Made by a program: the position numbers and the translations under genes
Shown: piece by piece, positions 11,298-14,700 of the stretch
Layout of the letters: every line of letters starts with the position of its first letter
How positions within the stretch are numbered: the stretch's first letter is position 1
NCBI RefSeq assembly: GCF_009914755.1
Contig: NC_060931.1
From: the human T2T-CHM13v2.0 reference genome, Homo sapiens
DNA length: 64,000 nucleotides
Strand: one strand, 5' to 3'
Notes under the pieces: model-generated
What the model saw: the letters and a program-made list of their open reading frames with translations, nothing else
The model's database searches: none
What the model was told of the DNA's origin: nothing

Positions 11298-11516
11298 TCA
11301 ATGTGGTGAAACTGAGGCTCAGAGAGGTTTAGGCCCTTGCCTAAGGTCACACAGCTGGGCTGAAAACCCGGGTCTTTGAACCTCACATCCAGTCCTGTTC
11401 AGGCACTTTCCTGGCTCCTTTGCAGTGAGGCATAGCTTGCTTTGGCCAACGAGTGTGACCAAAGTGACATGTGTCACTCCAGGTAGAAGCTTTATGGGTC
11501 AGTGCATGAGCCATGG
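11298..11516. repeat. Inverted repeat, left arm (MIR-derived + LTR-like composite)
   Basis: Reverse complement of 12353-12558 (200/206 identical, no gaps) and of 12026-12046. Contains the MIR core GAAACTGAGGCTCAGAGAGG...CCTAAGGTCACACAGC. Confidence 0.95.
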
Positions 11517-11574
11517 ATCCCTCAGCCTTCTTCCCTCACCTGCTCTCTCTGCTTTCTCCAAAGCAGAGGCTGCC

Positions 11575-11743
11575 ATGGGCTCCGTGGGGAGCCAGCGCCT
11601 TGAGGAGCCCAGCGTGGCAGGCACACCAGACCCGGGCGTAGTGATGAGCTTCACCTTCGACAGTCACCAGCTGGAGGAGGCGGCGGAGGCGGCTCAGGGC
11701 CAGGGCCTTAGGGCCAGGGGCGTCCCAGCTTTCACGGATACTA
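11575..11743 (+). CDS. SLC29A4: SLC29A4 exon 2, coding part (exon begins 11567); cytoplasmic N-terminus
   Basis: Pyrimidine tract + AAG/CAG acceptor (11561-11566), Kozak GCTGCCATGG, donor A|GTAAGT at 11744. Confidence 0.97.
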
Positions 11744-14700
11744 GTAAGTAGGCGTGCGGGCAAGGTGCGGGTCTTGCCCCAAAGCAGGCTGGGCTGTGTG
11801 ACCCCCGGTGAAGCCTTGCGGTATCGGGGAGCCATGGGTGGTCATGGAGGACTGGAGGCAGTGCCTGTCAGTGTGGATTAGATCTGCTGCATAACAAACA
11901 CGCCCACCTTCTCAGTGTCTCCGCCCTGATGCTGCATGTCCCTGCTGGGGGCCCTGCCGACAGCCCCAGGCAGAGGAGGCTCTGTTTTAACATGGGCTTT
12001 TGTGCTCACTGGGTGGGTGAAGGGACCATGGCTCATGCGCTGACCCGTACAGCTTCTTTTTTTTTTTTTTTTTTTTTTTTTTTTGAGACGGAGTCTCACT
12101 CTGTCACCCGGCTGGAGTGCACTGGTGCAATCTCGGCTCACTGCAAGCTCCGCCTCCTGGGTTCACGCCATTCTCCTGCCTCAGCCTCCCAAGTAGCTGG
12201 GACGGCAGGTGCCTGCCACCGTGCCCAGCTAATTTTGTGTATTTTTAGTAGAGACGGGGTTTCACCGTGGTCTCGATCTCCTGACCTCATGATCCGCCCG
12301 CCTCGGCCTCCCAAAGTGCTAGGATTACAGGCTTGAGCCACCGCGCCCGTCCGCTGACCCATAAAGCTTCTATCTGGAGTGACACATGTCACTTTGGTCA
12401 CACTCGTTGGCCAAAGCAAGCTATGCCTCACTGCAAAGGAGCCAGGAAAGTGCCTGAATAGGACTGGATGTGAGGTTCAAAGACCTGGGTTTTCAGCCCA
12501 GCTGTGTGACGTTAGGCAAGGGCCTAAACCTCTCTGAGCCTTAGTTTCACCACATTGAGGAATTGGGCCAACTGACTTTGAGATCAGACTTGCAGAGTGG
12601 ACAGCCCACAGGCTTGGAGTCTGACAGGCTCGGGTTCAAGCCTACCTCCCATCCTTTACCCACCAGGAGCCCCTGGTCAAGTCAGTGTTGTTCTGTGACC
12701 CTCGGTGTCTTCTTCTGGAAAAGGGAGATGATACTGTGTCAGTGTGGTTGCATCAGAATCCACAGAATCTTGCTTGGGCCTGTCCCTGGCACTCAGGAGG
12801 CACCCTGTAAGCTATAGTTCTTTTCTGGAGAGCTGCTGTTTATGCTAGTACTTTAGGCTCAGAAACCTGGGCTAAGGCTCGGCACGGTGGCTCATGCCTA
12901 TAATCCCAGCACTTTGGGAGGCTGAGGCCGGAGGATCACTTGAGCCCAGGAGTTTGAGGCCGGCCTGAACAACCTGGCAAAATCTCGTCTGTACAAAAAA
13001 TACAAAAATTAGCCGGGTGTGGTGGCACACGCCTGTAATCCCAGCTACTTCAGAGGCTGAGACAGGAGAATCACTTGAGCCCAGGAGGGGGTGGTCGTAG
13101 TGAGCCAAGGTCATGCCACTGCACTCCAGCCTGAGCAACGGCGAGACTCTGAAAAAAAAGAAAGAAAAAAGCAATTGGCTGACTAAAGTGGGAGCTAGTT
13201 AAGCCAGGCAGGCAGTCAGGAAGGTCATGGACAGTCTGGAACCCACGGGCAGGAGCTTCTTGGAGTCTCTGAGCTCCAGGAAGTCCCCAAGGTCTCACCT
13301 GATTAGGTCAGACCCACCCAGGGTAATTTCCCTTTTGATAAAGTTTATGGAGAAGGGACTTTAATCGCAAAACGCCTTCACAGCAGCACCAGGGCTAGGG
13401 TTGGAACTGGGGACTGTACTTCAGCTTGTCAAGGTGACCATAAACAGACCATCACGGTCCCCCCCTTGCCGGTGTGGCTCCCATAGACAGCTCCCTAAAC
13501 CATGCCTCCTCTCCAGATAAAGGCAGTGACAAGGTCATACCGCCACCGAGCATGATACAAGAACCCGGTACAACCCCGGACATGCTGACCCCTTCCCCAG
13601 AAGGACAGGCAAAGGGTGTTCACTCTTCTCCTTCCATATCCTATAATTTTATTTTTTATTTTTTTGAAAACAGTCTCGTGCTCTTGCCCAGGCTGGAGTG
13701 CAGTGGCCCAACCTTGGCTCACTGCAACCTCCACCTCCTGGGGTCAAATGATTCTCCTGCCTCAGCCTCCTGAGTAGCTGGAAATATAGGCGTGCACCAC
13801 CATGCCCAGCTAATTTTTTTTTTTTTTTTTTTTTTGAGACGGAGTCTCACTCTGTCGCCCAGGTTGGAGTGCAGTGGCGCGATCTCGGCTCACTGCAAGC
13901 TCCGCTTCCTGGGTTCACGCCATTCTCCTGCCTCAGCCTCCCGAGTAGCTGGGACTACAGGCGCCCACTACCATGCCTGGCTAATTTTTTGGGTTTTTTT
14001 GTATTTTTAGTAGAGATGGGGTTTCACCGTGTTAGCCAGGATAGTCTCGATCTCCTGACCTCGTGATCCGCCCGTCTTGGCCTCCCAAAGTGCTGGGATT
14101 ACAGTTGTGAGCCACGGCGCCTGGCCATTTTTTGTATTTTAGTAGAGATGGGGTTTCACCATGTTGGCCAGGCTGGTCTCGAACTCCTGAGTTCAGGTGA
14201 TCTGCCCGCCTTGGCCTCCCAGAGTGCTGGGATTACAGACGTGAGCTGGTTTCCTGTCCATCAAGCTGGCAGCTGCAGTGGCTGTGAGGGCGTGGGTGTG
14301 GTGGCTGTAGCCACAGTATTTGGTGGCTTTTGATAATGGCCAGATGACAGAGGTATCTGGAACAGAGGGGAGCAGGGGTCACGGTGATGGACAGTGGCTA
14401 TGGTGATGGCGGCCGGGGTGGTGGACATCGCCCTGTGCGGTGACTGTAGCCATGCGTGGAGCGTGCCCCGTCTCACCTGGTGTCTCTGGCTTTAGCATTG
14501 GACGAGCCAGTGCCCGATGACCGTTATCACGCCATCTACTTTGCGATGCTGCTGGCTGGCGTGGGCTTCCTGCTGCCATACAACAGCTTCATCACGGACG
14601 TGGACTACCTGCATCACAAGTACCCAGGTGGGTCCCTCCACGGTCACGCCCAGCCACTCAGCATCCTCCATCATGGCCTGGGGCCTCCCAGAAACCCCCG

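What the first reader, a model, noticed from the sequence alone, without database searches (positions are those of the whole stretch)
11298..12558. Gap-free 206-bp non-Alu inverted repeat clamps the SLC29A4 start-codon exon, with mismatches biased to G.U on the sense RNA
Seen: 11298-11503 is the reverse complement of 12353-12558 with 6 differences and no indels. Five are wobble-compatible in the + strand transcript (G11314.U12542, G11370.U12486, G11397.U12459, G11483.U12373, U11503.G12353); only G11345/G12511 is a true mismatch. On the opposite strand these five would be A.C mismatches. The left arm ends about 50 nt upstream of the exon 2 acceptor, just short of the likely branch point (ccctcac ~11533-11539), and the loop holds only exon 2. 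Known: flanking complementary sequences drive back-splicing and exon skipping and are ADAR substrates; independently inserted MIR copies are far more diverged than 3%. Inference: this is a local inverted duplication retained as an RNA stem that controls inclusion or circularisation of the only ATG-bearing exon. The 5/5 wobble bias is only about 1 in 32 by chance, so it is suggestive, not proof.
Basis: partly seen in the sequence, partly recalled or inferred. Interest (0 to 1): 0.82.

Follow-up and report, generated by a model that had tools for sequence, protein, structure and literature searches.

The report
Young inverted duplication flanking SLC29A4 exon 2
A roughly 225-base stretch of intron was copied backwards onto the other side of the start-codon exon of SLC29A4; it could fold the pre-mRNA into a long hairpin, but its arms change at the same rate as the surrounding non-coding DNA, so nothing found here shows that it is kept for a function.

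Summary
Five are G.U on the sense RNA and one is G/G.

The repeat is longer than reported, about 225 nt. An Alu (12058-12352) with a 19-bp target-site duplication sits inside the right arm, and pairing resumes at 12021-12057 with 11485-11522.

The whole structure, Alu included, occurs twice more in chr7 pericentromeric segmental duplications. Using these copies to infer which arm changed, the arms differed at 1 of 206 sites when the duplication happened, and the four arm lineages radiate like a star.

The arms have since diverged at the flank rate: 15/412 against 399/10622, Fisher p 1.0. That gives no sign of constraint.

The G.U bias recurs in the pseudogene copies (6 of 7 transitions; 11 of 12 overall, p 0.006). 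One pair is compensated. The total substitution count fits asymmetric mutation better than selection.

I found no SLC29A4 circRNA, exon-2 skipping or editing in RefSeq or in searchable paper texts.

Verdict: a real, young, apparently neutral inverted duplication. It resembles the intron pairs that drive exon circularisation, but any such effect is untested.

The parts
11298..11522 (+). Left arm of the inverted repeat, in intron 1. 11504-11522 pair with the piece of the right arm that lies before the Alu.
   Evidence: three-locus alignment
11520..11521 (.). Site where the gene copy lacks 36 nt that both paralogues carry. The site is bounded by a 5-nt direct repeat in the paralogues, so the most parsimonious reading is a deletion in the SLC29A4 lineage. 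It lies just inside the inner end of the left arm.
   Evidence: The direction (deletion rather than insertion) is inferred; there is no outgroup.
11533..11539 (+). It lies outside the stem, 11 nt past its inner end.
   Evidence: Sequence read; not tested.
11564..11743 (+). SLC29A4 exon 2 (ATG at 11575; alternative acceptor at 11567). It is the only exon between the arms.
   Evidence: RefSeq rows: 3 of 3 mRNAs include it.
12021..12057 (+). Inner piece of the right arm, cut off from the rest by the Alu. 12039-12057 is one copy of the Alu target-site duplication and carries two changes specific to the gene copy.
   Evidence: (D9, I19)
12058..12352 (-). Alu inserted into the already existing right arm. 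It is present at the same place in both paralogues.
   Evidence: Masked repeat 12047-12354; target-site duplication; alignment. The subfamily (Y-like) is recalled from diagnostic positions and was not tested.
12353..12558 (+). Outer 206 nt of the right arm. 12353-12371 is the second copy of the target-site duplication.
11305..11305 (+). With 12551, the only pair changed on both sides: G-C in the gene, A-U in both paralogues.
10889..11200 (+). Upstream Alu in the opposite orientation to the Alu inside the right arm. It forms a weaker competing pair across exon 2 (72-92% over 49-130 nt).
   Evidence: I9, I17; masked 10889-11112

Best explanation
This is a young, discrete, local inverted duplication that now drifts neutrally.

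History:
- A stretch of about 225-230 bp of SLC29A4 intron was copied in reverse orientation to the other side of exon 2. The first 60 nt of the stretch derive from an old dispersed repeat.
- The mechanism is inferred, probably a replication template switch. Which arm is the original could not be determined.
- An Alu then inserted into the right arm.
- After that, at least 18.6 kb (promoter plus exons 1-5) was duplicated to the chr7 pericentromere, and that copy was later duplicated again.
- Shown here: the order repeat, then Alu, then segmental duplication; that the arms were almost identical at the time of the segmental duplication; and that their later divergence matches the flanks.

Consequence for the RNA (inferred, untested):
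- In nascent pre-mRNA the arms can form a duplex of 206 bp plus 17 bp. The predicted energy is -434 kcal/mol for the 206-bp part.
- The duplex loops out exon 2 together with its acceptor and donor.
- From what is known of intron pairing, this should make the region an ADAR substrate and allow some back-splicing or skipping of exon 2.
- I take this to be a by-product, not a maintained regulator.

The G.U excess on the sense strand is best read as strand-asymmetric mutation plus sampling. Only part of it is explained.
For: - Sharp ends. Flank alignments are no better than shuffles: 881/1000, 416/1000 and 553/1000 shuffles reach the observed score.
- Copy number. Of 42 own-genome matches, 6 are long (3 loci times 2 arms). 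The other 36 are 38-59 nt: 34 of them cover only query positions 3-65 at dispersed loci, and 2 are the paralogues' short inner right-arm pieces.
- Order of events. The 19-bp target-site duplication is present once in the left arm and twice around the Alu in the right arm. The Alu and both arms are present in both paralogues.
- Star-like history. Of 15 variable sites in the 206-bp helix, 1 groups by arm (11503), 1 groups by locus (11305/12551) and 13 are single-lineage changes: gene left 2, gene right 3, paralogue left 2, paralogue right 6. Pairwise distances among the arm lineages are 5-10.
- Neutral rate. Arms 15/412 against unmasked flanks 399/10622, Fisher p 1.0. The left arm's 5 differences fall where 23% of 320 sliding windows have 5 or fewer. 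The right arm's 10 fall where 26% have 10 or more.
- A model in which only wobble-forming changes survive predicts about 6-8 changes. Fifteen were seen (P 0.003-0.017).
- The gene copy has also taken a 36-nt loss beside the stem, a G-to-A change at 11517 and loss of that base's partner.
- Hairpin prediction. MFE is -815.6 kcal/mol on the sense strand and -794.4 on the antisense strand for 11250-12610. Arm duplex energies are -433.6 and -413.5 in the gene, and -422.5 and -404.9 in the paralogues.
- Mutational asymmetry is plausible. Unmasked SLC29A4 introns have a G+T fraction of 0.519 (GC skew z 4.1). Introns of TNRC18, on the opposite strand, have 0.458 on the + strand. [quoted passage not shown]
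Against: - The sense-strand G.U bias is stronger than known asymmetries predict. It is 10 of 11 transitions since the segmental duplication (95% CI for the proportion 0.59-1.0). P(at least 10 of 11) is 0.03 even at a 60:40 bias.
- C>T 6 against G>A 0 (p 0.03) is not covered by the A>G asymmetry I could document.
- Changes specific to one or other recent paralogue, over 18.6 kb, show no such asymmetry: A>G 7 against T>C 13, and non-CpG C>T 19 against G>A 15.
- One compensated pair exists.
- The gene's arms carry fewer changes (5) than the paralogues' arms (8), though this is not significant: P(5 or fewer | 7.75) is 0.215.
- With only two independent lineages, the power to detect weak constraint is low.
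- No RNA data of any kind were available.
Confidence: 0.65

Rival explanations
1. Selected RNA stem. The duplex is maintained because it tunes inclusion, skipping or circularisation of the ATG-bearing exon. Substitutions that keep pairing (G.U) are tolerated and others are removed.
For: - 11 of 12 arm-to-arm transition differences are G.U on the sense RNA (binomial p 0.006 two-sided). The independent paralogue set gives 6 of 7 (p 0.06 one-sided).
- A.C-forming transitions: 1 seen against 5.4 expected (P 0.03).
- One pair is compensated: G-C in the gene, A-U in the paralogues.
- 99.2% of cells pair on the sense strand against 96.4% on the antisense strand.
- The geometry fits intron-pair-driven circularisation (review passages in PMC5168830).
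Against: - The total arm rate equals the flank rate (15 against 15.5 expected).
- G.U-forming changes are in excess (10 against 5.4 expected, P 0.05). Selection alone cannot produce an excess.
- The same bias appears in the pseudogene copies.
- Covariation is no better than shuffles: 179/500 reach it.
- No exon-2-less RefSeq mRNA: 0 of 3.
- No circRNA from SLC29A4 and no A-to-I editing report came up in the paper-text searches. Supplements, where circRNA tables usually sit, were closed.
Confidence: 0.12
2. Concerted evolution. The repeat is old, and the arms are kept alike by arm-to-arm gene conversion, as in large chromosomal palindromes.
For: - One site groups by locus (11305/12551).
- The arms were nearly identical at the time of the segmental duplication, even though an Alu insertion happened between the origin of the repeat and that duplication.
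Against: - 13 of 15 variable sites are single-lineage changes that were never copied to the partner arm.
- Arm-to-arm distances (6 and 9) are about the same as same-arm distances between loci (5 and 10).
- There is no decayed homology beyond the ends.
- The longest perfect run between the arms is only 85 bp.
Confidence: 0.06
3. Two independent insertions of a dispersed element (a SINE pair), or a palindromic non-autonomous transposon that happens to surround the exon.
For: About 50-60 nt of each arm match many dispersed copies at 78-91% identity.
Against: - The dispersed matches stop at about arm position 65. The remaining 160 nt or so exist only at the three chr7 loci.
- The arms are 97% alike, whereas dispersed copies are at most 91% over about 50 nt.
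- The 'loop' is a coding exon present in all 3 mRNAs.
- No Rfam family matches in 1-19000.
Confidence: 0.01

Closest known systems
Intronic reverse-complementary matches that flank circularised exons (inverted Alu pairs and non-repetitive complementary sequences)
   Same: The two arms lie in the introns on either side of a single exon. They enclose both splice sites. The predicted duplex is far stronger than any Alu pair nearby (96-97% against at most 89% among the pairs listed). The general mechanism and its antagonism by ADAR1 are as described in passages of PMC5168830.
   Different: The arms are not two transposon copies but a local inverted duplication of unique intron sequence. No back-splice product is documented. 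The exon is short (177-180 nt) and carries the start codon. There is no evidence of constraint.
Exon looping-out by engineered or natural hairpins that causes exon skipping (recalled from older splicing literature; no paper was read for this)
   Same: The stem brackets one exon closely: 41 nt upstream and 277 nt downstream of it.
   Different: No skipped isoform is annotated: 0 of 3 RefSeq mRNAs. The effect is untested.
Arm-homogenised palindromes of the sex chromosomes
   Same: Inverted arms of high identity around a spacer.
   Different: This one is about three orders of magnitude smaller, and the arms do not evolve in concert: 13 of 15 variable sites are arm-specific single-lineage changes.
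Pericentromeric segmental duplications of chr7
   Same: Window 1-18619 is duplicated at C7:64821669-64840294 and C7:57174360-57193002. BLAST identity, gaps included, is about 94%. Substitution divergence is 3.8% (702/18381). The repeat travels inside this duplication.
   Different: The segmental duplication explains the extra copies. It does not explain the origin of the inverted repeat, which is older.

Membership tests
Circularisation-competent intron pair (reverse-complementary match) | Complementary sequences in the upstream and downstream introns of the same exon(s) | tested here: met
   206 nt with 6 differences, plus a further 17 pairs. Exon 2 lies between the arms.
Circularisation-competent intron pair (reverse-complementary match) | The pairing is predicted to form in the transcript | tested here: met
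   The MFE and centroid structures of 11250-12610 both contain the full stem. Arm duplex energy is -433.6 kcal/mol. This is an in-silico result only.
Circularisation-competent intron pair (reverse-complementary match) | An observed back-splice junction (11743 joined to 11564/11567) | not testable with these tools
   No reads or circRNA database were available. The paper-text searches found none. Supplements were closed.
ADAR-edited long dsRNA | Clusters of A-to-I sites on both arms | not testable with these tools
   One text search (SLC29A4 plus A-to-I) listed two papers whose titles concern other topics. Neither was opened.
Structurally conserved RNA element | Compensatory changes above background, and a reduced substitution rate | tested here: not met
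   One of 223 pairs changed on both sides, and 179/500 shuffles reach this. Arm rate is 15/412 against 399/10622 in flanks. Only two independent lineages were available.
Inverted pair of independently inserted SINEs | Each arm is a separate element copy with its own ends and an element-level divergence | tested here: not met
   Dispersed similarity covers only about 50-60 nt of each arm. The arms are 97% alike across about 225 nt of mostly unique sequence.
Palindrome maintained by arm-to-arm gene conversion | Arms of one locus are more alike than the same arm in different loci | tested here: not met
   Distances: gene left to gene right 6, paralogue left to paralogue right 9, left to left 5, right to right 10.
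Known RNA families (Rfam 15) | A match at the gathering score | tested here: not met
   0 matches in window 1-19000.

The most novel reading that the evidence does not exclude
The stem is a lineage-specific regulatory innovation of apes. RNA-level selection in both the gene and its transcribed paralogue lets through only pairing-compatible substitutions (11 of 12 transitions are G.U, and one pair is compensated). The duplex gates use of the only ATG-bearing exon of the monoamine transporter PMAT through circularisation, skipping or ADAR-dependent melting.
Probability: 0.1. Interest if true: 0.6.

Novelty: new member of a known kind. Interest (0 to 1): 0.3.

Why it matters
If the stem acts in vivo, it would be a clean case of exon looping or circularisation driven by something other than a transposon pair, at the start-codon exon of a drug-relevant transporter. 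It also has two built-in paralogous controls.

As it stands, the value is mainly methodological. Segmental-duplication copies can be used to infer the direction of change in a human-only repeat. Done here, that shows that 97% arm identity reflects youth, not constraint.

The unexplained strand bias of the arm substitutions is a small lead worth checking in primate genomes.

Tried and rejected
- Decayed homology beyond the repeat ends: none.
- Which arm is the original. I searched both contexts against the genome. Dispersed matches start at query position 100 or later in both, two positions inside the boundary at 98.
- I also compared the flanks of four dispersed copies (L007-L010), pairwise and as they stand, with both contexts. 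The result was inconclusive: the best was 17/300 shuffles for one locus and the left flank, and the others were at chance.
- Heterogeneous arm identity as a sign of gene conversion. My first reading of the 84% ungapped match at 12015-12057 (I19) was wrong. With one gap it is 34/37. The two extra differences are changes specific to the gene copy, in one copy of the target-site duplication.
- Mutational asymmetry in the paralogues. Recent changes specific to one copy show none. The direction of the 702 older flank differences could not be inferred without an outgroup.
- Rfam: nothing.
- Literature. Two searches for a circRNA from SLC29A4 listed 5 and 0 papers. Three of the five were opened at the passages naming the gene, and all three treat SLC29A4 as an mRNA. 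The other two were seen only in the listing.
- One search for A-to-I editing listed 2 papers, seen only in the listing.
- One search for the pseudogene and LOC names listed 2 papers, not opened.
- Supplementary tables were closed and may hold circRNA or editing entries that I could not see.
- Names that are recalled and come from no call: 'MIR' for the dispersed piece, 'AluY-like' for the nested Alu, and the divergence-to-age calibration.
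Full report
**1. The observation**

- 11298-11503 is the reverse complement of 12353-12558: 206 nt, no indel, 6 differences.
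- Five differences are G/T combinations that would be G.U in the + strand RNA: 11314/12542, 11370/12486, 11397/12459, 11483/12373 and 11503/12353. One is G/G (11345/12511).
- The repeat finder lists the pair as 214 nt at 96%.
- One search found 116 inverted pairs of at least 120 nt within 6 kb in the window. Of the 25 longest that it lists, this is the only one above 89%. The others are in Alu-rich stretches.

**2. True extent**

The repeat is longer than reported.
- One search also showed a direct repeat (12031-12057 with 12345-12371) around the masked repeat 12047-12354. It showed a second inverted match as well, 11485-11527 with 12015-12057.
- A gapped alignment resolves this. A minus-strand Alu (12058-12352) sits inside the right arm, flanked by a 19-bp target-site duplication (12039-12057 and 12353-12371).
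- On the far side of the Alu the right arm continues. 12026-12057 pairs with 11516-11485 (29/32) and 12021-12025 pairs with 11522-11518 (5/5), with a 1-nt indel.
- The arms are therefore 11298-11522, and 12021-12057 plus 12372-12558.
- The left arm ends 41 nt before the 11564 acceptor. The right arm begins 277 nt after the donor.
- Beyond both ends there is no similarity: 10 of 39 positions pair outward. Flank alignments are matched or beaten by 881/1000, 416/1000 and 553/1000 shuffles.
- It is a discrete duplication with sharp ends.

**3. What the arms are made of**

- A search of the whole reference with the left arm gave 42 matches.
- Six are long: three chr7 loci, each with two arms.
- The other 36 are 38-59 nt. 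Thirty-four of them cover only query positions 3-65 at dispersed loci, at 83-91% identity. Two are the paralogues' short inner right-arm pieces (query 188-225, 95%).
- So about 50-60 nt of each arm come from an old dispersed repeat. The remaining 160 nt or so are unique.
- Searches with each arm in its own context, and pairwise comparison of four dispersed copies with both flanks, did not show which arm is the original.
- Rfam has nothing in 1-19000.

**4. Paralogues as a natural control**

- The whole structure, meaning both arms, the exon, the same Alu and its target-site duplication, recurs at C7:64832948-64834231 (+) and C7:57180424-57181712 (-).
- After fetching 50 kb around each, BLAST shows that window 1-18619 is duplicated there at about 94% identity. 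The homology runs off the window start and stops 6 nt before exon 6.
- The two pericentromeric copies are about 99% alike, and each is about 4-5% from the gene. They therefore represent one independent lineage that split recently.
- The annotated SLC29A4P1 and SLC29A4P2 lie about 70 kb from these copies.
- A Gnomon model, LOC124906636, uses the 57-Mb copies of exons 2-5.

**5. History**

- The 19-bp target site occurs once in the left arm and twice around the Alu. The Alu therefore entered an existing right arm.
- Both paralogues have the Alu and both arms, so the order is repeat, then Alu, then segmental duplication.
- In the 206-bp helix, the six arm sequences show 15 variable sites.
  - One groups by arm (11503/12353) and so predates the segmental duplication.
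  - One groups by locus (11305/12551: G-C in the gene, A-T in the paralogues).
  - Thirteen are changes on a single lineage: gene left 2, gene right 3, paralogue left 2, paralogue right 6.
- Pairwise distances are star-like: 6, 5, 10, 7, 10 and 9. The arms were essentially identical when the segmental duplication occurred and have not evolved in concert since.
- From recalled primate divergence figures, the 3.8% divergence between gene and paralogue points to the ape ancestor, roughly 15-20 million years ago. That date is inference, not a tool result.

**6. Test for constraint**

- Differences between the gene and the shared paralogue state: 399/10622 (3.76%) in unmasked, non-exon, non-arm sequence, and 15/412 (3.64%) in the two 206-bp arms. 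Expected 15.5; Fisher p 1.0.
- Among 320 sliding 206-bp windows the mean is 7.7 differences. The left arm has 5 (23% of windows have 5 or fewer). The right arm has 10 (26% have 10 or more).
- The gene lineage has 5 arm changes against 7.75 expected under an equal split (P 0.215).
- The gene copy has also lost 36 nt immediately inside the left arm's inner end. The site is bounded by a 5-nt direct repeat in the paralogues.
- It changed G11517 to A and lost the C that paired with it. It also altered two bases of one copy of the target-site duplication.
- None of this looks like a protected helix.

**7. The G.U bias**

- All four transitions in the gene's arms are derived and pairing-compatible: A>G at 11370 and 11483, and C>T at 12542 and 12459 on the + strand. 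The transversion at 12511 is also derived.
- In the paralogue lineage, 6 of 7 transitions are likewise G.U on the equivalent strand. With the old 11503 site the total is 11 of 12. The binomial p is 0.006 two-sided.
- On the formal count, 99.3% of 668 cells pair. Ten pairs vary on one side, 1 varies on both sides, and 3 depart by unpaired cells. Covariation is not above shuffles: 179/500 reach it.
- Pairing over the 206-bp helix is 99.2% on the sense strand and 96.4% on the antisense strand.
- The bias is real, but its shape argues against simple purifying selection.
  - G.U-forming transitions are in excess: 10 against 5.4 expected, P 0.05.
  - A.C-forming transitions are short: 1 against 5.4 expected, P 0.03.
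  - The total is unchanged. A model that keeps only wobble-forming changes predicts about 6-8 changes, and 15 were seen (P 0.003-0.017).
- A strand-asymmetric mutation process gives this shape.
  - Introns of SLC29A4 and of the opposite-strand gene TNRC18 both show the classic excess of G+T on the sense strand.
- What speaks against that explanation:
  - The asymmetry needed is large. P(at least 10 of 11) is 0.03 even at a 60:40 bias.
  - The C>T 6 against G>A 0 component (p 0.03) is not covered by what I read.
  - Changes specific to one or other recent paralogue, over 18.6 kb, show no asymmetry: A>G 7 against T>C 13, C>T 40 against G>A 38, and non-CpG C>T 19 against G>A 15.
- I leave this as partly unexplained.

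**8. RNA consequences**

- The 1361-nt stretch folds as one giant hairpin on either strand. MFE is -815.6 kcal/mol for the sense strand and -794.4 for the antisense strand.
- Arm duplex energies are -433.6 and -413.5 kcal/mol in the gene, and -422.5 and -404.9 in the paralogues.
- The geometry matches intron-pair-driven circularisation. Such duplexes are ADAR1 substrates (passages in PMC5168830).
- All 3 of 3 RefSeq mRNAs include exon 2, using acceptor 11564 or 11567.
- Text searches found no circRNA from this gene and no editing report.
  - searched for a circRNA. Three of the five listed papers were opened at the passages that name the gene, and all treat it as an mRNA.
  - One search listed two papers for A-to-I editing, which I did not open.
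  - Supplements were closed.
- Whether any back-splicing, skipping or editing occurs could not be tested.

**9. Verdict**

- Its high identity is explained by its age, not by retention. The evidence available here, from two independent lineages, shows neutral drift.
- In form it is a new member of the known class of exon-flanking reverse-complementary intron pairs. It is unusual in arising from unique sequence and in bracketing a start-codon exon.
- The functional claim remains open and is unsupported. Primate outgroups and circRNA or editing data would settle it.

Noticed in passing
window 98-177: Unannotated third copy of the MIR4283 precursor. It is 77/80 identical to the annotated MIR4283-1 and MIR4283-2 in the two pericentromeric duplicates, and identical over the 17-nt mature part.
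   Followed up: partly
window 1-18619; C7:64821669-64840294 and C7:57174360-57193002: The SLC29A4 promoter and exons 1-5 lie in a segmental duplication of about 94% identity. It runs off the window start and ends 6 nt before exon 6. The annotated SLC29A4P1 and SLC29A4P2 lie about 70 kb away from these copies.
   Followed up: partly
C7:57128429-57181401 (L003, L015, L020): The Gnomon model LOC124906636 starts at the ATG of the exon-2 copy and uses the copies of exons 3-5 before unrelated exons. Both exon-2 copies are open, with 4 of 56 residues changed.
   Followed up: partly
window 11562-11569: Exon 2 has tandem acceptors 3 nt apart (11564 and 11567) in RefSeq. The second AG is changed in both paralogues.
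   Followed up: no
window 32012-64000: Unmasked TNRC18 introns show a strong strand skew: TA skew -0.126 (z -11) and GC skew -0.048 on the + strand, which means an excess of G+T on the sense strand. This is larger than in SLC29A4.
   Followed up: no
window 12058-12085: The poly-T tail of the nested Alu differs in length among the three copies. It is longest in the gene copy.
   Followed up: no
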